Below, piece by piece: positions 27,126 through 62,995 of a stretch of 64,000 nucleotides of DNA (position 1 is the stretch's first letter; each line of letters begins with the position of its first letter). The stretch is from Octopus vulgaris (taxonomy: Eukaryota): the NCBI GenBank assembly GCA_951406725.2, contig OX597829.1, forward strand, positions 29,822,001 to 29,886,000, in the 5' to 3' direction. A program made the position numbers and the translations under genes. The notes beneath the pieces were generated by a model. The model did not search any database. It worked only from the letters and a program-made list of their open reading frames with translations, and was not told the DNA's origin.

Positions 27126-29460
27126 TCATCATCATCATCATCATCGTTTAATGTCTGTTTTCCATGTTTGCATGGGCTGGATGGTTCAACTGGGGTCTGG
27201 GAAGCCAGGAGGCTGCACCAGGCTCCAGTCTGACCTGGCAGTGTTTCTACAGCCGGATGCCCTTCCTAACGCCAACCACTCTGAGAGTGTAGTGGGTACT
27301 TTTTACATTCCACTGGCACAGAGGCCAGAGGGGGCTGGCAGTGATCACGAACGGTTGGTGCTTTTTATGTGCCACTGGCACGGAAGCCATTCATAGCAGC
27401 GCTGGCATCAGCCACATTTGGATGGTGCTTTTTACATGCCACTGGTATGGGGATCACACCTACAATTTCCATTTGATTTTGGTTTTGATGTACTTGACTC
27501 AATAGGTCAACCCAAGCATGGCATGTTGCCCTGTGATCCAAGGTACTTTTGAGTGGGCTGATTATGCAACACTGGTGTAGGTTACAGCTGTCAGCTCACT
27601 TTATTTGCCAGGTCTTCTGAGTTACAGCATATCTCCAGAGATCTCAGTCTTTTGTCATTGCCTCTGTGAGGCCCAATCATCCCATGTCTTCCTGGGTCTC
27701 CCTCTACCCAGGATTCCCCCCACTGTTTGGGGGTGGCACTTCTTCACACAGATCTCCTCATCCATCCGTAGTACATGATCATACCAACCCAAACGTCTCT
27801 CTTGCTTGCCACATCCGATGCTTCTTATGTCCAACATTTCTCTCGGGGTGTTTACACTCTGTTGTGTGTGCACACTGACATTACACATCCAGCGGATCAT
27901 GCTAGCTTCATTTCTTTCAAGCCTACGCATGTCTTCAGCAGTCACGGCCCATGTTTCACTGCCTTGAAGCATGGCTGTTTGCACACATGCATCATACAAT
28001 CTATCTTTCACTCTGAGCAAGAGGCCCTTTGTCACAAGTAGGGGTAGGAGCTTTCCGAACTTTGTCCAGGCTATTCTTATTCTAGTGGTAACACTCTCTG
28101 AGCATCCACCCCCACTACAGACTTGGTCACCTAGGTAGCGGAAGCTATCAACTATTTCTAGTTTCTCGCACTGGCATGTGATGGAATCTGTATACTGAGC
28201 ATCTGTGGTGTTTATTGCCCCTGTATGTCTGCCACACATGAATGCTATCTTCTTGGTTAATCTTCCTTTGATGTTGCTGCACCTCTTATATGTCCATAGC
28301 TTACACTGGGTACATCTTATGGAGTTTCTACCTACACATTTTCTACAGATTGAGCAGGGCCACCTACCTAAATGTATGATATGTTCGCCTTCCTACTTGC
28401 TAGAACTTTGGTCTTTGCAACATTGACTCTAAGGCCCTTCAATTCTAAACCTTGCTTCCACACCTGAAATTTCTTTTCTAGTTCTGGTAGTGATTCTGCT
28501 ATGAGGGTCAGGTCATCAGCATAGAGGAGCTCCCAGGCCAACCTGTCTTGAATTCTTCTGTTATTGCTTGGAGGATTATGATGAATAAGAGGGGGTTGAG
28601 AGCTGATCCTTGGTGGACCTCTACTTCTACCCGGAATTCTTCATTATACTCATTGCCAACCCTAACCTTACTAATAGCATCTCTGTATAGGGCCTGTACA
28701 GCCCTTATTAACCGTTTGTCAATCCCCAGTTTTTGCATCACCCACCAGATAAAGGATCGGGGGTCAAAGGCTTTCTCCAAGTCCACAAAAGCGAAATATA
28801 GGTGTTTGGCTAGATATTTCTCCTGCAGTTGCCATACCAGGAATATAGCATCAGTGGTGCTTCTAACTAACACAAAACTGAACTGCATTTCATCTAAGTA
28901 GACTCTCTCCCTAATTAGTTGGGCTTTGACCCTCATCACCTTATCCAGTAGTTTTATACCCCTGTGGTTATTTCTATCTAGAGCATCACCTTTACCCTTG
29001 TAGCAGTTGACTATGGGGCTGCTACGCCAGTCATAGGGTATGATTCCATCAGGAACTACCTGGTTTACAATACGGGTAACTAGACCATAGCCCATACCAC
29101 CAGATGTTTTAAGCATCTCAGTAGTGATTCCTGATAGGCCAGGGGCTTTTCCTGGCTTCATACCCTTAATTGCTTTATCTACCAGGGTGCTGTCTATTCG
29201 GATAGCTGGTCCCTCAACTGGGTCAGCATTTAGCAGGCTCTCCTCCTCCCAATCATGCTCCATGATCAGCAGTCTTTCATAATGGCTTCTCCAAGCCTCT
29301 TTCTTTTCCAAATCATTAAAAGCATGTGCACCATCATCCATGCAGACACATTTCTCTCCTGTGACATCACAAGTTTCTCTCACATACTGTCTTGCAATCC
29401 GAATTACTTCAGTTCCTTGGTCCTCACATTGCTGGACTTTGGCAAACTTCTTTTCTGCAT
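27126..29460 (-). mobile_element. RTE LINE, 5'-truncated, disrupted RT
   Basis: ORFs 28508-29383 (GKAPG, YKGKGD, FVDLEKAFD, HQGS) and 27655-28239 (FRYLG, RGRPRKTW); (CAT)n tail at the left end. Confidence 0.93.
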
Positions 29461-30385
29461 ATCATCATCATCATCATCATCATCATCGTTTAACGTCTGC
29501 TTTCCATGCTAGCATGGGTTGGACGGTTCAACTGGGGTCTGGCAAGCCCGAAGGCTGCACCAGGCCAGTCAGATCTGGCAGTGTTTCTACAGTGGATGCC
29601 CTTCCTAACGCCAACCACTCCGAGAGTGTAGTGGGTGATTTTATGTGCCACCGACACAGGTGCCAGATGAGGCTGGCAGACGGCCACGCTCGGATGGTGT
29701 TTTTTATGTGCCACCGACACAGGTGCCAGACGAGGCTGGCTGACGGCCACGCTCGGATGGTGTTTTCTTATGTGTCACCGACACAGGTGCCAGACGAGGC
29801 TGGCAGATGGCCACGCTCGGATGGTGTTTGTTACGTGCCCTCAGCATGGAGGCCAGTCTATGCGGTACTGGCTACGGTCACGTTCGGATGGTTTTCTTAT
29901 GTGCCACCGGCACTGGTACCACAAGGATACAAATTCCATTGATGTTCATCTATTTTGATTTGGTTCGATTTGATTTGATTTGATTCGATTCTCACTTGCC
30001 TCAACAGGTCTTCACAAGTGTCACAAGAAAGAAGGTATGCACAGGTGGACTGACTACGTCCCAGGTAGGGGCCACAGGTTATGGCTTCACTAGTCTTGCT
30101 GGGTCTTCTCACGCACAGCATACTTCCATAGGTCTCGGTCTCTAGTCATTTCCATGGTGAGACCTAACGTCCGAAGGTCGTGCTTCACCACCTCGTCCCA
30201 GGTTTTCCTGGGTCTACCTCTTCCACGGGTTCCCTCAACTGCTAGGGATTGGCACTTTCTCACACACCTATCTTCATCCATTCTCGCCACATGACCATTT
30301 CAGCGCAATCGTTTCTCTTGCACACCACAACTGATGCTTCTTAGGTACAACATTTCTCTCAAGGTACTAACGCTCTCAAGGTACT
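29461..30385 (-). mobile_element. Young RTE 3' fragment (same subfamily as 33583-36969)
   Basis: RGRGRPRKTWDEVVKHDLRTLGLT...QD* followed by the same 3' UTR modules. Confidence 0.9.
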
Positions 30386-32842: not shown

Positions 32843-33582
32843 TACATGTATTATATATTGTGAAATTTGATTTAGTATTACTAAACTGAATTTTTCCCTG
32901 TAAGTTTGGAATCATATTTCCTAATATTATATATATATAATACATCTATGTTCCATGCTGGTATGGTTTACACATATATATATTTTTAAATATATGTGTG
33001 CATGTGTATAAAATTACTGAGGTACCCCCCACCCCCCCTTTCATGCTGATATTTTCAACATTTCACTTTATCTTCTATTTAAAATAACTAATAGCTAAGT
33101 CTACAACAGGAGGTTATTTTGGTAGTCTCTCCTTACTGAAACAGCATATTTTTTATGCATGATGTGTGACAATGTAATGGCAAACTAGCAGGTGTTTGAT
33201 ATGGCTCTCTACATTCTAAGTTTAAGCCCACCAAAGTCAATATCCCTTTCATCTTTCTGGGCCAATAAAATAAATGATCTGTTCATGTGGTAGACTGGCT
33301 TAATCTTTATTTAGAGCATTAGATAAAATAACTTGTGTCACTCGTTTTGTTTCATGCATACACGTGCACACACATATCATCATCATAACTTTTCCAAGGA
33401 TAGCATAGGGTGGATGGGTCATCACAACCTGGATCAGTTCTTATTGTAAGTTACTGTCTCTTTAGACATGTCAAGGGACCATTTATATATATATATATGC
33501 TAACAATAAAATTTTCGATTCTTATGCAGCGTATCATAATGATGTTCTAGCTAGGGCTGGGTACCATTAAAAAACTCAGTAT

Positions 33583-36500
33583 GAAGAATTCCGGGTAGAG
33601 GTTGGGGTCCACCAAGGTTCAGTCCTCAGTCCCCTCCTATTTATCATAGTCCTCCAGGCAATAACGGAGGAATTCAAGACAGGTTGCCCCTGGGAGCTCC
33701 TCTATGCTGATGACCTTGCTCTAATTGCTGAGTCACTATCAGAACTGGAGGAGAAGTTTCAGGTGTGGAAACAAGGATTAGAATCGAAGGGCCTTAGAGT
33801 CAACCTAGCTAAAACCAAAGTCCTAATAAGTAGGAAGGTAGACAAATCACAAACGCCTTCAGGTAGATGGCCCTGCTCGATCTGTAGAAAAGGTGTAGGT
33901 AGAAACTCTATAAGATGCACCAAGTGTAAGCTATGGACACATAAGAGGTGCAGCAATGTCAAAGGAAGGCTAACTAGGAAGATGGTTTTTGTATGTGGCA
34001 GATGCTCGGGAGCATTAACCTCTGAAAATCTGCAGAAACAACTTCCGTCACTTTCCAGGGGGAAAACTAGAAGTAGTTGATAGCTTCCGTTATCTTGGTG
34101 ACCAAGTCAGTAGTGGCGGTGGGTGTGCTGAAAGTGTAATGGCTAGAGTAAGAATAGCCTGGGCAAAGTTTAGAGAGCTCTTACCCCTGCTGGTGACAAA
34201 AGGCCTCTCGCTCAGAGTAAAAGGCAGACTGTATGATGCATGTGTACGTACAGCCATGCTACATGGTAGTGAAACATGGGCCGTGACTGCTGAGGATATG
34301 CGTAAGCTCGCAAGAAATGAAGCCAGTATGCTCCGATGGATGTGTAATGTCAGTGTTCATAATCGTCAGAGTGTAAGTTCCTTGAGAGAAAAGTTGAACC
34401 TAAGAAGCGTCAGTTATGGTGTGCAAGAGAGACGGCTGCGCTGGTATGGTCATGTGACGAGAAAGGCTGAAGATAGTTGTGTGCAAAAGTGCTACACCCT
34501 AGCAGTTGAGGGAACCTGTGGAAGAGGTAGACCCAGGAAAACCTGGGACGAGGTGGTGAAGCACGACCTTCGAACTTTAGGTCTCACTAAGGAAATGTCT
34601 AGAGACCGAGACCTATGGAAGTATGCTGTGCGTGAGAAGACCCGGCAAGACTAGTCAGGCCATAACCCGTGGCCCCTACCTGGGACGTAGTCAGTCCTCC
34701 TGTGCATACCTCCTTCTTGCGACACTTATGAAGACCTGTTGAGGCAAGTGAAAATCAAATCAAAACAAATCAAAATAGATGAACATCTGTGGAATTGTAT
34801 TCTTTGTGGTACCAGTGCCGGTGGCACATAAAGACACCATCCGAAGACCCGGCGACGTAGTCAGTCCACCTGTGCATACCTTCCCTCTTATGACACTTGT
34901 GAAGACCTGTTGAGGCAAGTGTGTGACACTTGTGAAGACCTGTTGAGGCAGAGGCAAGTGTGTGACACTTGTGGAGACCTGTTGAGGCAAGTGTGTGACC
35001 CTTGTGAAAACCTGTTGAGGCAAGTGAAAATCAAAAATCAAATCAAACCAAATCAAAATAGATGAACATCAATGGAATTTGTATCTTTGTGGTTCCAGTA
35101 CCGGTGGCACACAAGAAAACCATCCGAACGTGGCCGTAGCCAGTACCGCATCGACTGGCCTCCGTGCTGTGGGCACAACAAACACCATCTGATCGTGGCC
35201 GTTCGCCAGCCTCATCTGGCACCTGTGTCGGTGGCACATAAAAACACCATCCGAAGACCCGGCGACGTAGTCAGTCCACCTGTGCATACCTTCCCTCTTA
35301 TGACACTTGTGAAGACCTGTTGAGGCAAGTGTGTGACACTTGTGAAGACCTGTTGAGGCAGAGGCAAGTGTGTGACACTTTGTGAAGACCTGTTGAGGCA
35401 GAGGCAAGTGTGTGACACTTGTGGAGACGTGTTGAGGCAAGTGTGTGACACGTGTGACACTTGTGAAGACCTGTTGAGGCAAGTGAAAATCAAACCAAAC
35501 TTGTGAAGACCTGTTGAGGCAAGTGAAAATCAAACCAAATCAAAATAGATGAACATCAATGGAATTTGTATCTTTGTGGTTCCAGTACCAGTGGCACACA
35601 AGAAAACCATCCGATCGTGGCCGTTCGCCAGCCTCATCTGGCACCTGTGTCGGTGGCACATAAAAACACCATCCGAAGACCCGGCGACGTAGTCAGTCCA
35701 CCTGTGCATACCTTCCTACTTATGACACTTGTGAAGACCTGTTGAGGCAAGTGAAAATCAAAATCAAATCAAATCAAATCAAACCAAATCAAAATAGATG
35801 AACATCAATGGAATTTGTATCTTTGTGGTACCAGTACCGGTGGCACACAAGAAAACCATCCGAACGTGGCCGTAGCCAGTACCGCATCGACTGGCCTCTG
35901 TGATGTGGGCACATAACAAACACCATCCGATCGTGGCCGTCCGCCAGCCTCATCTGGCACCTGTGTCGGTGGCACATAAAAACACCAACCGAAGACCCGG
36001 CAAGACTAGTCAGGCCATAACCCATGGCCCCTACTTGGGACGTAGTCAGTCCACCTGTGCATACCTTCCTTCCTTCTTGTGACACTTGTGAAGACCTGTG
36101 AAGACCTGTTGAGGCAAGTGAAAATCAAATCAAATCAAATCAAAATAGATGAACATCAATGGAATTTGTATCTTGTGGTACCAGTGCCGGTGGCACACAA
36201 GAAAACCATCCGAACGTGGCCGTAGCCAGTACCGCATCGACTGGCCTCCGTGCTGTGGGCACGCAACAAACACCATCCGATCGTGGCCGTTCGCCAGCCT
36301 CATCTGGCACCTGTGTCGGTGGCACATAAAAACACCATCCGAAGACCCGGCAAGACTAGTCAGGCCATAACCCGTGGCCCCTACCTGGGACGTAGTCAGT
36401 CCACCTGTGCATACCTTCCTTCTTGTGACACTTGTGAAGACCTGTTGAGGCAAGTGAAAATCAAATCAAATCAAAACAAATCAAAATAGATGAACATCAA

Positions 36501-41926: not shown

Positions 41927-42028
41927 TCAAATGGCATCAATATCAATATCTGCTCCACTCTCATCATCATCCTCATCCTCATTCTTTGGTTCAGACATAG
42001 AAACTACCTCAGTAGGAGAATAGGCAAT
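41927..42028 (-). CDS. eIF5: eIF5 last coding exon (IAYSPTEVV...DIDIDAI*)
   Basis: ttccag| acceptor, conserved C-terminus, TGA at 41929-41927. Confidence 0.95.
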   Translation of the reverse strand: MAYSPTEVVSMSEPKNEDEDDDESGADIDIDAI

Positions 42029-45000
42029 CTGGAAGAGAGAAAAAGAGAAAAGTGTTAGTAACTGTAACAATTTGTTGATGTTTAGCAACAAGTCACAATT
42101 TTTACAACTTGAATTATTCATAAGTACATGAAATAAATTTTGAGTTACTAGGATAGAAGAGACTGAAAGTTATGCTAGTTTTTTTTTTTTTTTCTTATAA
42201 AAAAAAAAAAAAGACGCTATCTCCTAAATTAGTAATTTGACATTGGACTACAGTACAGTACAGGATACTTTATATTTCTATGTTCTTAATTGAAGTATTA
42301 GCACCAATTATAGACAAGGGAAGTAAGAGATAGAAAAGCAGAATATACCTCTTCATCATCAGACCCATCTTTATCAGAGTCTTCAACTTCAGCTTCTTCC
42401 AACCACTTGATAAATGGCTTTGCTTTCTCCCTGATGTCCTCAGCCACTGACTTGGACACATGATTCTTAGTTGGCTGAAAAGTTAGAAATAAACCAGTTA
42501 AGTTTAAATATTCACAACAAATACAAAATAGTACATGTGAAAGACAAAGAGATGGGAAACACACCTTAGCAGCCCATTTTAGTATCACATCTTCATCCAG
42601 TATATCTTCATCATACAGTGTCTTTAATATATGTGGAACCTTTGACATAAGAACATCCTTGTGGATTTTACCAACAAGAATTTCAATACCAGACAACAGA
42701 TATTTTTGGGCTTTTGGACTATCATTGCAAAACTGAAAGAAAAAAAAAAGTTCACAAATCTTAAGTTTTAATTTGGAAAAGTACAGACTTAAGATGGTTT
42801 CATGTTTGTATGACAAAAACACTAACAGATTTTAATTAAAACTGTTTTAAAAACAATGCTTATATACATGGTATCAAAAGGGTTTAAAAATAAGCATTTA
42901 AATATTAAAGAGTGGAACTATATTTACCCTTAAGAGGAGTTTCTTGTGTTCCTTAATTTGTTTTAAAATGTCTGCATTAAAAAGCAATTCAACCAGGATT
43001 GTAGGACATTTCTCTTTGATCTCAAGACGTTCAGCTTCAGCAAGGATATCTTTGTCAGCACCAGCAAGGGTTTTAGATTCATGCTTTTGCTATTCCAATA
43101 TAAATAAATGTATTAACTCTAAAATATCAAACCTTCTATTCAAAAACACATACTATTGTTTAAAACATGTCAAAAACCTTTTACTATATCAGCACAAGGG
43201 TACTGGATATTCCCATTAAAAATAAATTCAAAAGTATTAAAGTAATAACTAATCAATAGGAGTATCAATATACTTAAAACCTAAACTTGCATTCCTTTTA
43301 TTTTAAAATGCAAAAGAACTGTCTAATACTATGCAAGCCTAAGTTACATAAACATATTACTCAGGAAAAATTTCGACTCAACTCACTTTGATAAAGTTGT
43401 AGAGAATGTTCATTCTTTCTTCTTGTGTCTTTTCAAGATCATCTGTTAAGGTAAGCCCTTTGGCTGCCGATGTCAAATCTCTCATACGTTCCCTGACAGC
43501 TGCTTCACTAAAATCTTCAGTCCAATCATCATCATCACCAGCATCTTGGGCCTCAGGAGGTGCCAGAATATCTCCTCCACTTGCACGCTGAGCAGCCATT
43601 TGTTCTTGTGCATTAGCTTCAGGGCTGTTACAATCACCATTCACACTCTCTTGTTTCTTTGACTTCTTTGACTTTTTGCTTTTAGATGTTGCTTGAGCTT
43701 GATTATCCTAGAAAATGAAATTAATTCTCAGTTTCAGTTTTGAATACCAAGTTGATATATTCACAAGATACTTTAATGTGCAGTTCATAGTGTTCTATTA
43801 TTAGGCAATATACAGACATTAAATTCTTTAGAAAATATTGACAATCCTTTGAAATTTAAAATTAGCTTTTCTTATGGGCCCAAATTATGCCTAAAATCAA
43901 ATGCTTTCTATCTTAAAAAAAGGAAGAGTAACCATTCATTACCTGATCAGGTGGGTTTTTCAAGATAAATGTAGTAAGCTTATGATTCATATCAACGGGA
44001 CCTTGGTATCCACATGCAATACAACGTTGCAAGATAAGCTGCTTTCTGGATAAAATAACCTGAAAGTTCATTAAAAAAAACTTTAAAATATATGCACCTT
44101 CAATCAAAGTAAGTTATAAAAGTTGAACGTTCAGAATAGTTGCTTACCAAATTGGTCTCTGGATTAGAGCATTGTGGACAAAGCACAAATTTCTTAATGA
44201 ATCCATCAAGTAATCCCTGCAGCTTAATAGCTTCATGTGCACCATTAACAATGTAGCGATCATTTTTCAAGTCAAATTGTGTTTGGGCGCCAAGTTCACA
44301 GCCAAAATACTTGGTAGGATCTTAAAAATAAATAGGTTAAAATAAAGTTTGCAACTTGAATACTCATCGAGTTGACAGCTTATATTCTATTCAGAACTTC
44401 AAATATGAAATCTACATCACAAGGAGAAAAAAAAAGCTTACATTTTGGGGGCCTTGAGAGAGCTTTGGCAATCTCTGGCATGTTGACAACAACTGTTTTA
44501 ATACCATTTCCTTTCCCTTCTACCTAGAAATGGAAAAAGAAAAATCATTTTACAGAATCGAAGTTTTACAAAAAAAAATTTTAAATATGGACAACTTCCG
44601 ACAGAAAAAGTGAAACGTAAAGTACTAATAATCAGCAGAAATGAGGAGTAAAACGCAAAATGTGTTTTATTTAGAGTTATAATTTAAATTAAAGTAAAAT
44701 TTCAGGAGTTGATATACGAACACACCGGTACATACGTGTGTATGGTTGAATTGCGCTGATATACTCATATTAGCCAATTGTTAACCTTTCCAGTTAGTTT
44801 CACTTTGTTCAAGATTACATGTAAACCGTATTTGATGGTATAAAAAAATAATTTTTTTAATTAAAAAAAACGCATATGTATAAGATACACCCTAATTTCT
44901 AGAAGAGTTTTTGTACTCTTATTTAAAGTAACTTCGCACATAGGAGCCCCAGTGATATGAGGCGTTTGAGTTTTTTACTGTTTTGCAAAAGGTGGTTAAA

Positions 45001-45124
45001 AATGCGTCTTATAAGACAAATATATTGAAGTACAAGAATGATAACATACTTTTGCTATGAGACGAGGCATCTTATAGCGATAAAACTGGTCAGACACATT
45101 GGTGTTGACGTTAACGCAAGCCAT
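41927..45124 (-). CDS. eIF5: Eukaryotic translation initiation factor 5, spliced CDS join(45124-45050,44523-44442,44320-44148,44059-43943,43707-43387,43089-42928,42732-42565,42474-42349,42028-41927), 1326 nt, about 441 aa
   Basis: Manual splicing gives [69 protein letters not shown]... It includes the GAP arginine in FYRYKMP, the zinc ribbon CPQC...CIAC, W2/HEAT acidic-aromatic boxes ([24 protein letters not shown]) and the typical C-terminus DIDIDAI*. All introns are GT-AG and the frame is preserved. Confidence 0.97.
42349..42474 (-). CDS. eIF5: eIF5 coding exon 8 ([29 protein letters not shown]...DDEE)
   Basis: tttcag| acceptor, |gtatat donor, AA-box 2. Confidence 0.95.
42565..42732 (-). 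CDS. eIF5: eIF5 coding exon 7 ([13 protein letters not shown]...VILKWAAK)
   Basis: tttcag| acceptor, |gtgtgt donor, AA-box 1. Confidence 0.95.
42928..43089 (-). CDS. eIF5: eIF5 coding exon 6 ([27 protein letters not shown]...LLLR)
   Basis: aatag| acceptor, |gtaaat donor, EAERL motif, in frame. Confidence 0.93.
43387..43707 (-). CDS. eIF5: eIF5 coding exon 5 (lysine-rich linker, [18 protein letters not shown]...)
   Basis: ttttctag| acceptor, |gtgagt donor, conserved acidic DW linker motif. Confidence 0.94.
43943..44059 (-). CDS. eIF5: eIF5 coding exon 4 ([20 protein letters not shown]...KNPPDQ)
   Basis: tttcag| acceptor, |gtaatg donor, second CxxC of the zinc ribbon. Confidence 0.96.
44148..44320 (-). 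CDS. eIF5: eIF5 coding exon 3 ([13 protein letters not shown]...[11 protein letters not shown])
   Basis: ttttaag| acceptor, |gtaagc donor, conserved eIF5/eIF2beta N-terminal domain. Confidence 0.96.
44442..44523 (-). CDS. eIF5: eIF5 coding exon 2 ([27 protein letters not shown])
   Basis: tttctag| acceptor, |gtaagc donor, conserved eIF5 peptide. Confidence 0.96.
45050..45124 (-). CDS. eIF5: eIF5 coding exon 1 ([25 protein letters not shown]); the full exon with its UTR part spans 45278-45050
   Basis: ATG in strong context (ggaATGg); donor AAA|gtatgt; acceptor ttttttttccag| ahead of 45278. Confidence 0.95.
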
Positions 45125-47574
45125 TCCGATTGATTTTTGTGACACTTATGTTTACGATGGATGCTACTATCAGGATAGCGCCAATGGCTCCAAACCGTGG
45201 AGAAATTCATAAAACCTTGATCGGATTTACTTCTGGTCGAACACTTAGTTCTCGTGCTCAATAGGCACAATGATAACTCTGGAAAAAAAAATAAAAGAAA
45301 AAATGACAAAAACCACTGGCTACAAAAAACAATATTAAAAAGTCTATGTAAATTCGTGGCTAGATACTCACAAATTATTATTATACTAGCAGTATTCCTA
45401 TGTTGATAAAAGACTTATTCATATTCAAAAAAAATTATTTTTTTGCGAACTAATATTTTCCAAGTTGCCAAGAGACCACTAACAAATTTCGAAATTTCTA
45501 TTTAATCCACCGAACTTTCAGAAATCAAGCATAATCCAACATTATCTTCAAGAAAAAGATCATTGTGCCTTTAACAAATCCCCAATAGGTTGCTGTTAAT
45601 CGTCAATATGGTTGAATATTGGAAAGGTAGATTTGATACAAAGTCTTTTTCGGCAAAAGAGGAGAAAAAGAAAAAAAAAGAAGAGGTTGTATCGGTCATG
45701 GCTTTCCTAAGGGCAATAGCAATTCATCTAAAAAGAAATTGTTTTTAAGGTCCATGTTAATGAAACTTATAATCAATAGTTGACGCATTAAAGTCGTTGG
45801 GGTCAATGACAACAGCATTGAAACTTAACAAGTCGCGAAACTTCTTCGAAAACAAAAAACAAAAAAAAAACAAAAAGAAGGAAAAAACTGATAGAAACTA
45901 GAGAGGCGTTCATTGTTGAATAATTTTGGAAGGCGTTCTGTGGAACGACGATGCCAATATTTTGAAATTTAGCAACAAAAAAAAGAAAAAGAAACGGATT
46001 CAAATGGTTAAAGACCTTTTTAAAAAAAAATAAGTTCAAAGAGTTCGAGACGACAGTCTGTAGGTGGTGACGACATTAAAAGCTCTTGCTATATTATACA
46101 TAGCAGAGGCGAGGCAACGTGGAAGTTAAAAAGAATTGGAAGAAGAAAAAAAAAAGTCCTGTTTCCCTACCACCTCGAAAATTAATAAATATGAAACCAA
46201 ACTTTCTCTTCAATTAAATCCATTTAGCAATATATAAATCAATTAAAACGATATTTTAGAAGCTTATTAAAATGGAAATATGTTTTCTTTTATCTCGTTC
46301 CTTTACGTAGAGGTCAAACAACGAGTATCTATCTGACTGACATAAGCACATTAGTTACAAAAAGGCAATACGACATTAGAATTAAAGATTAGAGCAGCAA
46401 TTAATGTCTGGGCAAGTAAACTAATTGAGACCTTCCACATTCAATTGAAACGTTGGTTTCTCTGACGGCAATTAGCAAACCTCACAAAGAGAAGCGAAAA
46501 TCAGAGGGGGCAAGGGGGGAAAAAAAAAAAACCCATCGAATTCACTCTCTTCAATAGATTACTTTCCATGTGGCGATTGTACCTCCACCCACATATGTAA
46601 ATCGTACATAATTGAAGCTAAATAACACATTTGGGGGAAAAGAGAAATTACTTCAGAAATGGAATTTTTTTTTTTCTTGATTGATTTAAAAAGAAAATTT
46701 TTTTTTCGGAATACTATAATTAGAAAGAAAAAAAAAATTTGATGGGTGGAAAAAAAAAAAAAAAAAAACCCCGGCGAACCCAAATTAAAAGTGAAAAGAC
46801 AGGGAGAGATAGGTCAAAGAAGTTGGATTTTTCTAAAAATTTCCGTTAATATCGTTGGCAGCAAGTGGCAGTAAAAGAATGAAAGGGAACGAAATTAAAA
46901 TTCCTTAAAACGCACAAGTCACACACATCACACAGAAATGCAAGACTTAATGAAAACAGAACAAGGCAATTTTATTTTTTCTCTCTCTCTCTCCCCCAAG
47001 GCCACGAAACATTTCATAAAAGAAAGTAGCCATGTATATAATAAAACCAATGTGAACAGACATGGATGGATTCCATGCTGAACGTGGAAAATTTTCCTGG
47101 TGTTGCCGATAATATTCAATGGTAAAAATCAGGTTTTAAATGTGTATATATATATATTACTTTTATATATAACGTTTTATACATTTATATACATCTATAA
47201 CATGCATGTAACATAATTTGCTTACATAGAAACAAACATATAGCACTTTAAACACTGTAATAGGTTTTAAGTACTACATAGCTTCTCCCACACGCATAAT
47301 ATACATTCTCTCACTACACACACATGTAATATATACATACGATTGTTACACACACACACTATTTAACAATTAAGCCTAGAACATACGAACATATAAAGAT
47401 GTACATGAATTAGTGATGAAAGGAACATGCGGTTGATGTCACGACAAGAAAGACCAGCACATAATAGAAGAGTAGCGAAAAAAGGGTTTAATTTTAAAAG
47501 AGACTATGAGAAAGTGTGATTATATATATATATATATATTAGAAGTATTAGGGGTGATGTACACATTTAATTTT

Positions 47575-47612
<38 letters not shown>

Positions 47613-47639
47613 CTTTACTGCCCACAAGGGGCTAAACAT

Positions 47640-47683
<44 letters not shown>

Positions 47684-48014
47684 ATAGAGAAATCTAGAAT
47701 AAAGGATATACATATAAAAAAAACGATGTGTATATATATTATATAAGCTTATGTAGGAATACTGTGATAGACACGCGAAAAGTTAAAAGTTATGGACTTG
47801 TAACATGAAAACTGTAGGCCACAAAAAAAAATGTGAATGAAAAAAAAAGAAAATGGACAGAAATACAAGAAATTTTTTTTTTTTTTAAAACTGAGAAAGA
47901 GAGAGAGCGGTATGGAGAGAGGAGAGGCGATTTCTAAATGGTTGTGGTTAGTTTAGAAATTGTCCAAGAGGAAAGGAAAAAAAAAAAAAACTTACCGTCT
48001 TGATGCAATGACAT
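45055..48014 (-). promoter_or_regulatory. Spliced inhibitory uORF of eIF5, join(48014-47996,45278-45055), 80 aa, overlapping the main CDS out of frame
   Basis: uAUG1 tttttATGt at 48014 and in-frame uAUG2 gttttATGa at 45210. The TAG at 45057-45055 lies about 70 nt downstream of the main AUG. Confidence 0.85.
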
Positions 48015-48902
48015 AAAAACGTCGACGACAACAGAAAGGATAAAGAGATAAAATAAAATATGGCGGTTGGCAACAGCTGAAGAAGGGAGCGACACGAGCT
48101 CCTATTACTTCGTCCTGGTAGCCGTCTTCTTCTTCTTCTTCTGGCTGCTGCTGCTGCTTGCTTGCTTGCTTGCTTTGCTTGCTACGTCGCCGTCGTCGTC
48201 GTCGTCACTGTCTTCTTCTTCGCCGCCACCACCACGACTCCTAAAACAAACACTACTTTAGTAGGAGTGTTTTTAGTAGTGTTAATAGTTGTTTTTTTTT
48301 TTTTTTTTGGCTTTCTCGGTACACTGGTTGTTGAGTGATGGAAAGTAGTTGAAGGTGGTGGCAGAGTCGATATTGCTGGTGCTTGCTTTTATAGGCTTTT
48401 TTTTTTGTAAACTGCTGCTGCTGTTGTTGTCACTAGTGAAAACACTAGTGCTGCTGCTGCTGCTAAGTACCGACACTAGTGCGGCACCTGATGTTGCTGC
48501 TGCTGCTAGCACTGACAATGGTCGTCGCTGCTCCTACTGCTGCTGCTGCTGATGTCGTGTTGATAAGGAAATACTAAAATACTAATAATAATAATAATGG
48601 CAGTGGTGATTTCAAAAAAAAATTATAAACTTGTTCACCGCTTTTCTACCAGTAATATACGTGACCAAATTAACTGGGTTTTCTTCCTGTTGTTGTTGTT
48701 CTTTTGTGTCGAGGTTAATAGTGAAATAAATGTTGATAACGATGATAATACTGCTGCTGCTGACGGCAACTGTTATTCTGTGCAGACTGATGATCTTCAA
48801 AAATCACTGGTGAAAACAATACAAAACTATTATTAATGTATTTTTTTTTAATGATATATATATATTAAACGATCGTAATAAACGTATTCCGTAAAGTAGT
48901 TA
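47996..48902 (-). other. eIF5: eIF5 5' leader exon (3' end firm at 47996; 5' extent inferred, about 48090 to 49000)
   Basis: Donor GACG|gtaagt at 47996/47995. Splicing to 45278 keeps the uORF in frame. No minus-strand ATG between 48015 and 48902. Confidence 0.65.
48057..48066 (+). promoter_or_regulatory. YY1-like motif AATATGGCGG in the eIF5 leader/promoter
   Basis: Matches AANATGGCGG; next to the pyrimidine tract CTCCCTTCTTC on the minus strand (48079-48089). Confidence 0.4.
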
Positions 48903-51319
48903 CATATATATATATATATATATTGAGGTTGTTATCCAATAACCAAGAATTCGTTTTGTGATAAGAATACTAGGGTGTTTATTGTTTCTCTCTTGTGTTG
49001 GCGGTGAATGATCTGCTAGTTCCCACAATCCGTGGTTAGAGACAGACATAAAAGGGGTGGGAGGACGAAAGTATGCGTGTGAGTACGTGTACTTTTCAGA
49101 GAGGGAAAAAGAGCTATTGAGCGATAGAGGAGGAGGAGAGAGAGAGGAAAACTACAAGTATGTATATGTCAGAGAGAGAAAGAGAGGCATAAACATAGAA
49201 CAAGCGAGGGAAAAGACGACGGAGTGTATGAATGAATGAGAAAGGATGGGAGGGGTGTGTTGAAAGGAAAAGGCGGGTGTTTAAGTAAATTATCCTAAAT
49301 TAACATTTTAACAGTAATTAGTGAGTTCGAGTATTAGTACTCCTCATGAGGTTAATTAATAATTAATGAGATTCCTTCAGATAAATAAAAAAAATTGATT
49401 CTACGGAGTTAGCTCAAAATATGCATAATCGACATATATATATATATTTCTGAGAGAGAGTGAGATTGCTATCTACAAATAAGACAGATGCGAGAGCAGA
49501 TCAAGTCGGTAAGAGAGAGGTGAACCCGTAAAATATTTCCTTTACAATACTTAATATTTTGTTGGGCAACAAATATTCTTCTAATCAAAATCAGAAATCA
49601 AACTTATCGCTTATTATTTAATACGAATAAAATCAAATTAATGAATTCTGAATTACTCACATCGTCGAGCAAATAACCTTGGTCGGGAAAAAAAAGGTTG
49701 GTTACAAAATGAAAGATGGAGAGTTAAGTTAGAGGGAAGAAAGATCGGAATAAGTGGAGGGAACCGGAATTAGTCGTAGAAGCAAGCGGAAGTCTCGTTC
49801 GAACGAGACTTATGGCATTTTTTTAATGTAATGTAATGTAACAACTTTGTTACGTTCATTCGTTTTATTATGTTAGCAGACGTACATATACCTGTTATAT
49901 ATACATATAAAGAAATATATAAACTCGACCCTACTCTCAGTTTTTCGAAACCGGTTTCTAGGAGTCGTGTTGAATAGCAGCAACGCGAAACTCGCAGCAT
50001 ATGTGTGTGTGTGATTTACTTATTATTAACCCTGTTAAGCGCGGTTGCCAGAAAGTGCTTTCTTGAGTTGAAATACCGCCGCATTCAATGTTGGATCTTT
50101 AATCCTTCCGGAATCGAGAAAATAAAGTATCAGTTGACTTGAATTTGAAAGCTTGTGCTCATATAAATATATTATATAGAGAGAAAGAGTGTGAAATATA
50201 GATACGTAGACAATGCATGTTTATTAGAAGCCACTTGTAGGGAAAGCAAATCCCTTTAATTTTCATAGCGCAAACCGTGATGATAATAAACGATTTCCAC
50301 TGTAAATGCTTGTAATTGAGATTATTGCACTGGGATACAGCAAATCCAATTACGAATTAGCAATATAACTTTATTAAGCTTTAATATATTTGTTTATATA
50401 CATATACTTGTATATGAATAATTAAGGCAGAATTTTCTCGTGGCAAACAGTGGAATAGTAAAGAGTCATAAAATAGATGAGAAAGAAAACTCCTGGCCAG
50501 TTGGCAAGTTATGGTCGCAGATTCTGGCGTTATCTATCCCATGTACACAGCTGAACTGACGTATATAGTTTTTATATCCACATACATGTACGTGTATATA
50601 TATATAATACATATACGCCTTTATAAACATATACATGGATGTAAGTAGATAACATCATACTAAATATACGTGTAAATATGCACACCCCTTTGATATATAT
50701 ATATATATATATATATGAAAGCATATATTGCAGACATATATGCCTATATGTACATATATCTCTCTATACACACACAAAGAGGCATATAACACTTGCGCGT
50801 GTAACTGCGTTTATACCTTCTGCCGAGTTGCTTATAATCGATATTACAAGAATTACATATCAATTTATTCATAAAAGTAAACAGCGAAATTTCATTTCAT
50901 CCCACACGTCTCGCGACTAGGTTGTTGTGACCTGAGAACAAGATATTTCGCAGGTCTCTGTTGACTGTGAATGCCAAGTGGGAGTATTGTGGGTTTGTGA
51001 AGATTATGCCTACGTTATGTAGATTAGGAACAAACGTGGTGATGTATCAGCTGTACGTAAATGGAGATATAAAATGCGTAAGACACTGTCCCATCAGAAA
51101 TAAAGAAAAATACAATTGAAGCGGAATCCATATGTAATTATATCAAAAATATCGATGTGCGAGTGTCATCGATACATTTTAATATCAAGAACATCCTGAC
51201 AGGACTGGGTGCCTACACGTTTTGCTAGAAGATTCGATAATTCTCATGGCGAACACCGGCTGAATTTATATATATATATATAGACGTGTGTGTGTTTGTG
51301 CTTATTTCCTTCTTTCCTA

Positions 51320-60880: not shown

Positions 60881-62995
60881 GCTTCTGGACTGGTGATCCC
60901 TGATGACGTTGTCCTCAGTTGACGAACTATGGTCATCCCTCAAAGTATATGTAATCTGGTTGACTGACCAGGCAGTTCCTGTTGGGCTTCCCAAGAAGAA
61001 GAAACACAAGCCCTGGGTGACGAAGAAGGTTAAACGAGAACGTCGACTCAGAGATATTGCTTGGGCTGAATTCAAAAATCTGGATTCGACTGCAGCTTTT
61101 GAGGTGTACAAAACTCAACGAGACCGAGCCGTGAAAATTGAAAAGGAAGAACGCTTCAGTTATGAATACAAAATCGCGGCAAATGCCAGTAGCAATCCAA
61201 AAACCTTCTTTGCCCATGTCCAACGGAATTCCCGCTTGAACAACCAGATTGCAACGTTGGTAGACTCAACAGGCGTATCGATTGAGGACCCTTATCAACA
61301 GAGTCAATTATTTGCCGAGGCTTTTTCAACTATTTTCAAACAAGATGATGGTCGTGAACCCCCTCCATTTGATAGATCAGTACCTCCAATGCCTAGATTG
61401 GTCATCATGCGGGACGAAGTCAAACGTGTTATTCAAGGCCTCAATGTCAACAAGGGTCACGGCCCTGACGGCATACACCCATGGGTTATCAAAGCGTTGG
61501 CTCCGGTCATCTGTGAGCCCTTAACACGTCTATTCAATATGTCATTGGCGACGGATGTTATACCTGCGGACTGGAGAACAGCGATAATCTGCCCAATTTT
61601 CAAGAAAAGGAGCCGCGAAGACCCGCTTAACTACCGACCGGTTTCCCTTACATCAATAATCAGCAAGATGTTCGAAACCATCCTTAAGAAAAGTATGATG
61701 CTCCACCTCCAAAACACAGCCTCTATCTCTGATTCCCAACACGGCTTCGTGCCGAAGAGATCATGCTTGACCAACTTACTGGTAATGGAAGAATTGGTGA
61801 CGCGCATCCTCGATGATAGTGATGCTGTTGACATCGTTTTATTGGACTTTGCCAAAGCTTTTGACTCGGTAAACCACCGCCTATTACTTGTCAAGCTTCA
61901 AGCATATAGTTTCCATCCGGATATTGTACGATGGGTTGGTGCCTTCCTCTCAGATCGCTCCTTCCAAGTCCAAGTTAATGGTTCGCGGTCCGACGTCTCC
62001 AGTGCGAGCAGTGGCGTGCCTCAAGGTTCAGTGCTTGGGCCCTTATTGTTCTTAGTCTTCATAAATGACTTGCCTGACGACCTCACACAACACACCCTTC
62101 TATTTGCCGACGATATCAAACTGGTCGCTCCTCGCGGTGATATAGAGGATCTTCGTCGATGCCTCCACCAAATTTGGAAGTGGTCTAACGAATGGGACCT
62201 GTGTCTGAACGTGACAAAGTGCTGTCATCTGCCTGTTGGCTCTCCTCCTGCAACTCAACTTGATTTCAAGCCGGGTCGTCTGCTGCTGGAGAGGACTGAT
62301 CAGGTAAAGGACCTGGGTATCTTGGTGGATTCCTCCTTTTCGCCTTCGGCCCAGTGCGTCCATGCTGCCAACAAAGCACACGGAATTCTGTTCTTGATTC
62401 GACGGTCATTCGGAATGCTCACAGCAGCCATATTCCTACCACTCTATGTCACGCTGGTGAGACCCATATTGGAGTACGGGATTCAAGCCTCTTCTCCTTA
62501 TCTCCTCAAAGACATACAGCATCTCGAAAGAGTCCAGAAGCTGGCTACCCGCATGGTTCATGGTCTCAAAAATTTGTCCTATGAAGAAAGGCTCAGGACG
62601 CTCGACCTTTATTCTCTTGAAAAACGCCGCCGCCGTGGTGATCTCATTCTCGCCCACAACATCATAAGCGGAAAGTGTAACCTCTCGAAAGAGCTGTTCT
62701 TCACTCCTGCTCCAGAGCGTCGGCTGCGGGGTCATTCCGAAAAGCTCTACCTGCGACGATTTCATCTCAATCGAAGGAGAGGAGCTTTCTCCATCCGGGT
62801 TGCGGATCCGTGGAACAAGCTGCCAGACGAGATGGTGAAGATGCCGACGACCGCTTTGTTCAAAGCCTCCCTTGACCTCAAGTGGCCTGAACTCTTTACA
62901 TGAACACCACCCTGTACTTAACTCCATGTCCCCCTACATGGCCTTGCTATTTGCTTTTGAGCCAAATTAACTAACTAACTAACTAACTAACTAAC
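60881..62995 (+). mobile_element. 5'-truncated CR1-group LINE with (CTAA)n tail
   Basis: Uninterrupted RT ORF; short 3' UTR; tail CTAACTAACTAA...; precise insertion into the R4-like ORF. Confidence 0.92.
60903..62903 (+). CDS. LINE ORF2 reverse transcriptase (5'-truncated, no endonuclease domain), 666 open codons
   Basis: NPKTFF, KGHGPDGI, NYRPVSLTS, QHGF, LDFAKAFDSV, SGVPQGSVLGPLLF, LFADD, KDLG, LERVQ, RRRRGDL, LRGH motifs. Confidence 0.9.
   Translation: MTLSSVDELWSSLKVYVIWLTDQAVPVGLPKKKKHKPWVTKKVKRERRLRDIAWAEFKNLDSTAAFEVYKTQRDRAVKIEKEERFSYEYKIAANASSNPKTFFAHVQRNSRLNNQIATLVDSTGVSIEDPYQQSQLFAEAFSTIFKQDDGREPPPFDRSVPPMPRLVIMRDEVKRVIQGLNVNKGHGPDGIHPWVIKALAPVICEPLTRLFNMSLATDVIPADWRTAIICPIFKKRSREDPLNYRPVSLTSIISKMFETILKKSMMLHLQNTASISDSQHGFVPKRSCLTNLLVMEELVTRILDDSDAVDIVLLDFAKAFDSVNHRLLLVKLQAYSFHPDIVRWVGAFLSDRSFQVQVNGSRSDVSSASSGVPQGSVLGPLLFLVFINDLPDDLTQHTLLFADDIKLVAPRGDIEDLRRCLHQIWKWSNEWDLCLNVTKCCHLPVGSPPATQLDFKPGRLLLERTDQVKDLGILVDSSFSPSAQCVHAANKAHGILFLIRRSFGMLTAAIFLPLYVTLVRPILEYGIQASSPYLLKDIQHLERVQKLATRMVHGLKNLSYEERLRTLDLYSLEKRRRRGDLILAHNIISGKCNLSKELFFTPAPERRLRGHSEKLYLRRFHLNRRRGAFSIRVADPWNKLPDEMVKMPTTALFKASLDLKWPELFT

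What the first reader, a model, noticed from the sequence alone, without database searches (positions are those of the whole stretch)
45055..48014. Spliced poor-context uORF overlapping eIF5: a start-codon-stringency autoregulation circuit
Seen: joining the donor at 47996 to the acceptor at 45278 creates an 80-codon ORF (MSLHQDELSLCLLSTRTKCSTRSKSDQGFMNFSTVWSHW...CLVS*). Its two in-frame AUGs both have U at -3/-2/-1 (tttATGt, tttATGa). It runs past the strong-context main AUG (ggaATGg) in another frame and stops about 70 nt into the CDS, so ribosomes that start upstream cannot reinitiate on eIF5. Established: eIF5 lowers start-codon stringency, and eIF5 mRNAs in many eukaryotes use poor-context inhibitory uAUGs as negative feedback, reciprocal to eIF1. 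Inference: this is the cephalopod version. The ORF track misses it because it spans a 2.7-kb intron.
Basis: partly seen in the sequence, partly recalled or inferred. Interest (0 to 1): 0.8.

Follow-up and report, generated by a model that had tools for sequence, protein, structure and literature searches.

The report
Octopus eIF5 self-limiting upstream ORF
The octopus gene for translation factor eIF5 has two weak-context upstream start codons on either side of an intron that, once spliced as predicted, open an 80-codon frame overlapping the real start, likely the ordinary self-limiting feedback brake already described for eIF5 in humans and other molluscs.

Summary
Joining 47996 to 45278 gives an 80-codon +1-frame uORF. 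Both upstream AUGs have U at -3/-2/-1 and no G at +4, and the frame stops 70 nt into the eIF5 CDS. The gene's protein is identical to a named Octopus vulgaris eIF5.

The junction was not seen in reads. It is supported indirectly: human EIF5 has a uORF1 intron in the same phase and codon, and a public O. vulgaris model uses the same join. The AUG contexts match the seven molluscs listed by Loughran et al. 2012, and the genome's two eIF1 copies have predicted poor-context starts.

This is a new member of a described element; regulation is inferred from human reporter work, untested here. The scan met the element before in another animal (e1-7507037).

Two extras: the uORF stop sits at the same codon in many distant eIF5 mRNAs. 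A public model also splices out the main AUG and fuses the uORF to eIF5, which is probably a gene-model artefact (7% real).

The parts
48015..48904 (-). ATG-free stretch upstream of uAUG1 (promoter and/or 5' leader; transcription start not located)
   Evidence: Longest ATG gap on either strand of the window; 0 of 5,000 block shuffles reach 890 nt; the proximal 200-300 nt alone are not significant
47996..48020 (-). 3' end of leader exon 1: uAUG1 (48014-48012, context gtttttATGt), first 19 nt of uORF1, donor ACG|GTAAGT
   Evidence: human equivalent in Loughran Table S1 primers
45279..47995 (-). 2,717-nt GT-AG intron 1, phase 1, inside the Glu codon (codon 7) of uORF1
   Evidence: acceptor tract 94% pyrimidine; same join in public model P0123; not seen in reads
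45050..45278 (-). Exon 2 (229 nt): 154 nt of leader plus eIF5 codons 1-25
   Evidence: all sampled words held by 20 of 24 listed runs
45207..45216 (-). uAUG2 (45210-45208, context ggttttATGa), in frame with uAUG1; alone gives a 51-codon overlapping uORF
   Evidence: similar uAUG2 contexts in molluscs and in loci L017, L022
45121..45130 (-). Main eIF5 AUG (45124-45122), G at -3 and G at +4
   Evidence: N-terminus matches P0002, P0121, P0122, P0124
45055..45057 (-). uORF stop TAG, formed by the rare Ile codon ATA plus GCA of eIF5 codons 22-23
   Evidence: ATA is 4 of 30 Ile codons in this CDS
45086..45195 (-). Putative 110-nt intron inside exon 2 implied by public model P0123; it would delete the main AUG and fuse uORF codons 1-34 to eIF5 residue 14 (probably an artefact)
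41927..45124 (-). eIF5 coding sequence, 9 coding exons, 441 aa
   Evidence: PF01873 and W2 PF02020; identical to P0002

Best explanation
The octopus eIF5 gene carries two U-rich weak-context upstream AUGs that, after the predicted removal of intron 1, share one 80-codon frame ending 70 nt inside the eIF5 coding sequence, and this likely acts as a negative-feedback sensor in which high eIF5 would divert ribosomes into the uORF and cut eIF5 synthesis. Shown from sequence: the AUGs, their contexts, the frame, the overlap and the strong main AUG. Inferred from homology: use of the junction. Inferred from human experiments: at normal stringency most scanning ribosomes pass both weak AUGs and start at the strong main AUG. 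When eIF5 rises or eIF1 falls, stringency relaxes and more ribosomes start upstream. They terminate past the main AUG and cannot reinitiate on it. The poor-context eIF1 start codons would give the opposite arm of the loop. NMD of uORF-translated mRNA may reinforce this (speculative).
For: ORF and contexts computed. Contexts are rare in the window (2.5% of ATGs). uAUG1 positions -6..-1 are identical to Lottia and C. gigas uAUG1; uAUG2 differs by one base from C. gigas and Mytilus uAUG2; 7 of 7 listed molluscs have two uAUGs. Human primers show exon 1 ending ACG and exon 2 starting AG, a phase-1 intron in a Glu codon 22 nt after uAUG1, against 19 nt here (compared by eye). Public O. vulgaris model P0123 uses the same join. 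Exon 2 is held by 20 of 24 listed runs, under six organism codes plus one metatranscriptome. Loci L017 and L022 show two +1-frame uuuAUGa starts and a stop at +70. Two eIF1 copies have predicted first exons with U at -3 and A at +4. Human reporters respond to eIF5 and eIF1 (PMC3326321).
Against: No read or contig was laid across the junction, and the transcription start is unknown. No ribosome profiling or reporter data exist here. Octopus start-context preferences were not measured (a literature search listed no mollusc consensus study). P0123 may rest on the same DNA as the window and contains a doubtful second intron, so it is weak support. No cephalopod leader DNA could be fetched, so conservation within cephalopods is only indirect. 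The uORF peptide has no homologue in protein collections. Its likeness to L017 and L022 is marginal (12 and 21 of 1,000 shuffles, uncorrected for 9 tests) and is not significant for the other 7.
Confidence: 0.82

Rival explanations
1. Most mRNAs use another first exon, acceptor or extra small exon, so uAUG1 is absent or uncoupled and only the 51-codon uAUG2 uORF acts as the sensor.
For: O. bimaculoides has three and O. sinensis two RefSeq accessions for one identical protein, compatible with leader isoforms. An acceptor at 45315 would end the uAUG1 ORF after 29 codons. Three acceptor-donor pairs in intron 1 could form small exons (acceptors 47811, 47761, 46713). In another animal the scan found a different first exon and a middle exon (e1-7507037, unchecked).
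Against: The 45278 acceptor has the strongest pyrimidine tract among the candidates listed (0.94 against 0.71-0.82). The direct join matches the human junction and P0123. The candidate internal donors have poor exonic bases.
Confidence: 0.08
2. An extra 110-nt splice inside exon 2 produces a real isoform in which the uORF becomes the N-terminus of eIF5, so that isoform would rise, not fall, when stringency relaxes.
For: Public model P0123 encodes exactly this and one GT-AG solution reproduces it. The O. vulgaris annotation paper describes use of Iso-Seq and PASA isoform updates (PMC10700109, passages); that P0123 comes from that pipeline is my assumption. Two mammalian 'hypothetical' models also join uORF1 sequence to eIF5 (P0093, P0063).
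Against: The donor has T at +3, seen in 0 of 9 donors of the gene, and the acceptor tract (0.53) ties with the weakest of 9. The mammalian models join at a different residue. Only 3 of 105 eIF5 proteins examined have such N-termini, none from RefSeq or Logan. No other cluster representative shares this N-terminus. Gene finders can patch a uORF onto a CDS with a short intron (my knowledge).
Confidence: 0.07
3. The uORF is a constitutive damper or NMD trigger that sets eIF5 level but does not sense eIF5.
For: A long overlapping uORF inhibits whatever controls it. Its stop lies upstream of eight further junctions of the gene model.
Against: A simple damper needs no conserved worst-case context, yet -3 is U in 98.8% of uAUG1s and +4 is never G. 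Human reporters respond 4- to 6-fold to eIF5.
Confidence: 0.06
4. A chance ORF in an AT-rich leader.
For: The peptide has no database homologue.
Against: Context, frame, overlap, intron phase and stop position all recur in distant eIF5 mRNAs.
Confidence: 0.01

Closest known systems
eIF5 mRNA inhibitory poor-context uORFs (Loughran, Sachs, Atkins, Ivanov 2012; PMC3326321), molluscan set in Fig. S1D
   Same: Two uAUGs, U-rich -3..-1, no G at +4; first uAUG opens the longest uORF, over 50 codons; strong main AUG.
   Different: No cephalopod is among the 7 molluscs listed. Octopus uAUG1 has U at +4 where all 7 have A. Whether their uORFs overlap the CDS could not be read from the supplement.
Human EIF5 uORF1
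   Same: Overlaps the CDS; split by a phase-1 intron in a Glu codon, exon 1 ending ACG and exon 2 starting AG; begins Met-Ser-Leu.
   Different: Human has three uAUGs, a uORF of over 90 codons, a 1,056-nt intron and 22 nt of uORF in exon 1. Octopus has two uAUGs, 80 codons, a 2,717-nt intron and 19 nt. Peptide similarity to the mammalian sequence (P0093) is not significant. Human is tested, octopus is not.
eIF1 and BZW1/2 poor-context main AUGs; Hox inhibitory uORFs (PMC8892498, passages)
   Same: Same sensing principle, start-codon selection stringency.
   Different: eIF1 and BZW use a weak main AUG (opposite sign). Hox uORFs sense stringency but do not feed back on it.

Membership tests
eIF5 autoregulatory uORF element (Loughran 2012) | Host gene is eIF5 | tested here: met
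   PF01873 and W2 domains; model identical to named O. vulgaris eIF5 P0002; one other PF01873 match in the genome, which I read as eIF2-beta from recall
eIF5 autoregulatory uORF element (Loughran 2012) | uAUG1 with U at -3 (and -2, -1) and no G at +4 | tested here: met
   gtttttATGt; rule from the paper
eIF5 autoregulatory uORF element (Loughran 2012) | All uAUGs lack a -3 purine and +4 G | tested here: met
   2 of 2 uAUGs in the modelled leader; no other ATG for 890 nt upstream
eIF5 autoregulatory uORF element (Loughran 2012) | uORF1 is the longest, at least 50 codons in invertebrates and/or overlapping the main ORF | tested here: met
   80 codons, 70-nt overlap, conditional on the junction; uAUG2 alone gives 51 codons
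eIF5 autoregulatory uORF element (Loughran 2012) | Main AUG in strong context | tested here: met
   G at -3 and +4; judged by the mammalian rule, octopus preferences not measured
eIF5 autoregulatory uORF element (Loughran 2012) | uAUG1 lies in the mature mRNA, joined as modelled | tested here: inconclusive
   No reads across the junction; indirect support from the human junction and model P0123
eIF5 autoregulatory uORF element (Loughran 2012) | Contexts conserved among relatives | tested here: inconclusive
   Match to 7 listed non-cephalopod molluscs and L017, L022; other cephalopod leaders not obtained as DNA; exon 2 words held under six coded organisms
eIF5 autoregulatory uORF element (Loughran 2012) | Leader represses on eIF5 excess and derepresses on eIF1 excess, uAUG-dependently | not testable with these tools
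   Shown only for human
eIF1/eIF5 cross-regulatory loop | eIF1 starts at a poor-context AUG | tested here: met
   2 of 2 eIF1 copies found (G000:C1:203319773 and 203280671) have tgctgtATGa; first exons are my prediction, not transcript-verified

The most novel reading that the evidence does not exclude
Octopus makes a second eIF5 mRNA by splicing 110 nt out of exon 2. This deletes the strong main AUG and turns the inhibitory uORF into a 34-residue N-terminus of eIF5 that replaces residues 1-13 just before the FYRYKM arm (which holds the catalytic arginine, from recall). The same weak AUG would then drive eIF5 up instead of down when stringency relaxes, so splicing would switch the circuit between negative and positive feedback, or make a variant eIF5. 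Similar fused models in goat and hamster would then point to a wider overlooked isoform.
Probability: 0.07. Interest if true: 0.65.

Novelty: new member of a known kind. Interest (0 to 1): 0.2.

Why it matters
It extends a near-universal translational feedback element to cephalopods and suggests that the intron splitting uORF1 is shared between humans and octopus, which would make the exon-level layout very old. The uORF stop appears held at one codon by a rare synonymous choice, hinting that the extent of overlap is under selection. Practically, it warns that a public octopus eIF5 isoform may be a mis-joined uORF. None of this changes the accepted model unless the fused isoform is real.

Tried and rejected
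No reads or contigs were laid across the intron (one search gave no result), so junction use and any alternative junctions stay open.

Protein searches with the 73-residue exon-2 part of the uORF: no candidate among 40-128-aa proteins, no Pfam family, and one hit among 1.84 billion representatives (P0134, E 3e-4, a repetitive protein; rejected as chance). A search with residues 1-40 of P0123 found no candidate among representatives of 254-809 aa.

The metagenome scan returned 80 of 185 relatives, none over 79% identical, so no cephalopod leader. Twelve of the 80 could not be parsed, and many are genomic contigs whose introns I did not model.

I hoped longer Logan proteins held translated leaders. 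P0129 is extended at the C-terminus and P0130 by only 7 residues at the N-terminus.

Peptide similarity to 7 of 9 comparison sequences was not significant. A shared Ser-His-Trp with the mammalian uORF is noted but not counted.

One search used wrong exon ends and is superseded. ATG depletion in the proximal 200-500 nt is not significant by itself (P 0.07-0.42).

Literature: 'eIF5 + uORF + cephalopod' and '+ octopus' each listed one unrelated paper (listings only). Searches listed nothing on a uORF-fused eIF5 isoform or on molluscan tests (listings only). PMC3483551 mentions EIF5 only in passing. The library lacks most subscription papers.

Full report
Observation. On the minus strand, a consensus donor follows base 47996 and a strong acceptor precedes base 45278. 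Joining them, with the downstream exons, gives an 80-codon ORF from 48014 in the +1 frame relative to eIF5. It has a second in-frame AUG at 45210 and stops at 45057-45055, 70 nt into the CDS. The contexts are gtttttATGt, ggttttATGa and, for the main start at 45124, atcggaATGg. A third Met of the frame (45099) is downstream of the main AUG. Only 73 of 2,934 ATGs in the window have TTT-ATG-nonG, and the leader frame stays open in 3.5% of 5,000 shuffles. No ATG occurs for 890 nt upstream of uAUG1. That is the longest gap on either strand and is reached by 0 of 5,000 block shuffles, so uAUG1 would be the first AUG for any cap in that range. The proximal 200-500 nt alone are not significant.

The gene. 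Nine coding exons give a 441-aa protein with PF01873 and W2 domains, identical to a named Octopus vulgaris eIF5, P0002. Relatives from O. sinensis, O. bimaculoides and Argonauta start with the same N-terminus. The genome search for PF01873 gave 2 matches, this gene and one that I read from recall as eIF2-beta.

Is the junction real? It was not observed: no reads were laid across it. Exon 2 is held in full by 20 of 24 listed runs, 1 on record as RNA, 13 guessed RNA and 6 of unknown kind, under six organism codes plus a metatranscriptome. Two indirect lines support the join. First, primers in Table S1 of PMC3326321 give the human boundaries: exon 1 ends in ACG, exon 2 begins with AG, a phase-1 intron in a Glu codon 22 nt after uAUG1 (compared by eye). 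Octopus has the same ends and phase at 19 nt. Second, public model P0123 uses the identical join, although it may rest on the same DNA and has a doubtful second intron. Against: several accessions per protein in two octopus species allow leader isoforms, an acceptor at 45315 would uncouple uAUG1, and three weak internal-exon candidates exist.

Comparison with what is known. I read parts 1-4 of 5 of PMC3326321 (all of the main text) and its PDF supplement as text. The peptide logos of Fig. S2 were garbled, the underlying sequences are not in the file, and the other supplementary file was not searched; these could hold detail on molluscan uORF ends. The paper reports 867 uAUGs in 337 eIF5 homologues, U at -3 of uAUG1 in 98.8%, never G at +4, and uORF1 of at least 50 codons in invertebrates. 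Seven molluscs, none a cephalopod, have two uAUGs each, with contexts equal or one base from those here. Human reporters were repressed up to 4-fold by eIF5 and induced about 2.5-fold by eIF1. Of PMC8892498, PMC10700109 and PMC3483551 I saw passages only, no supplements.

Related loci. The metagenome scan kept 80 of 185 eIF5 relatives. Of these 68 were parsed: 21 have a +1-frame and 4 a +2-frame uORF overlapping the CDS, and 13 of the 21 stop at the same codon as octopus. L017 and L022, unplaced animal-like transcripts, have two +1-frame uuuAUGa starts and share a Gly-Phe-Met-x-Phe motif at uAUG2. Their peptide scores are marginal (12 and 21 of 1,000 shuffles); 7 other comparisons were not significant. 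In 22 hand-picked non-redundant loci with Ile or Leu at that codon, 9 of 11 with a +1 overlapping uORF use the xTA codon that makes the stop, against 1 of 11 without (L016, whose leader is too short to judge). Background xTA use is 0-24% in the first group. I dropped near-duplicates and loci with another residue there; counting L043 gives 9 of 12. The loci are not phylogenetically independent, so this is a lead.

The other arm. Two tandem eIF1 copies lie on G000:C1. Each has a predicted 28-nt first coding exon in an 85%-identical block, with U at -3 and A at +4, as the loop requires. These exons are not transcript-verified.

Mechanism. Shown: anatomy and contexts. Inferred: splicing, leaky scanning past both uAUGs, greater use of them when eIF5 is high, no reinitiation because the stop lies past the main AUG, and hence negative feedback. 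Confidence 0.82.

The fused model. P0123 runs uORF codons 1-34 into eIF5 residue 14. This needs a 110-nt intron, 45195-45086, whose donor has T at +3 (0 of 9 donors of the gene) and whose acceptor tract ties with the weakest of 9. Three of 105 eIF5 proteins examined have such N-termini; the two mammalian ones are 'hypothetical' models that join at another residue. A targeted search found no further example among cluster representatives. The annotation method described in PMC10700109 mixes ab initio models and transcript updates, so it cannot decide the matter. I put 7% on a real isoform, which would invert the sign of the feedback.

Verdict. Real, correctly interpreted and ordinary: a new member of a known kind. 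My searches for a cephalopod report listed only unrelated papers. The scan noted the element before in another animal (e1-7507037). Interest 0.2.

Noticed in passing
window 45086-45195 (-); protein P0123: A public O. vulgaris eIF5 model splices out the main AUG and fuses the uORF to eIF5; goat and hamster hypothetical models (P0093, P0063) do something similar at another residue.
   Followed up: partly
window 45055-45057 (-); L017, L019, L022, L025, L028, L030, L031, L036, L039: The +1-frame uORF stop falls at the same eIF5 codon in many distant mRNAs, made by a rare xTA codon before Ala.
   Followed up: partly
window 48015-48904 (-): 890 nt without ATG (11 CAT on the same strand), rich in trinucleotide repeats; may be a long AUG-free leader or a broad start region.
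   Followed up: partly
G000:C1:203279255-203319773 (L007-L011): Two tandem eIF1 copies about 37 kb apart, both with poor-context predicted starts and slightly different N-termini; a 155-nt tandem repeat lies upstream of one (about 203320180-203321111).
   Followed up: partly
window 45180-45190 (-); P0093: The tripeptide Ser-His-Trp occurs in both octopus and mammalian uORF1 but at different distances from the junction; overall similarity is not significant.
   Followed up: partly
window 45125-45145 (-); P0130: An unnamed relative's protein starts with six residues of which five match the in-frame translation of the octopus leader just before the main AUG, hinting at leader conservation in other cephalopods.
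   Followed up: no
L033, L034, L040, L045; L018, L023, L024, L027, L029: Other eIF5 leaders use a +2-frame overlapping uORF or a long non-overlapping one, so the frame is not universal.
   Followed up: no
window 27655-29461 (-), 33571-34654 (+), 60897-62903 (+): ORFs that look like LINE reverse-transcriptase fragments (label from recall), the last 668 aa long.
   Followed up: no
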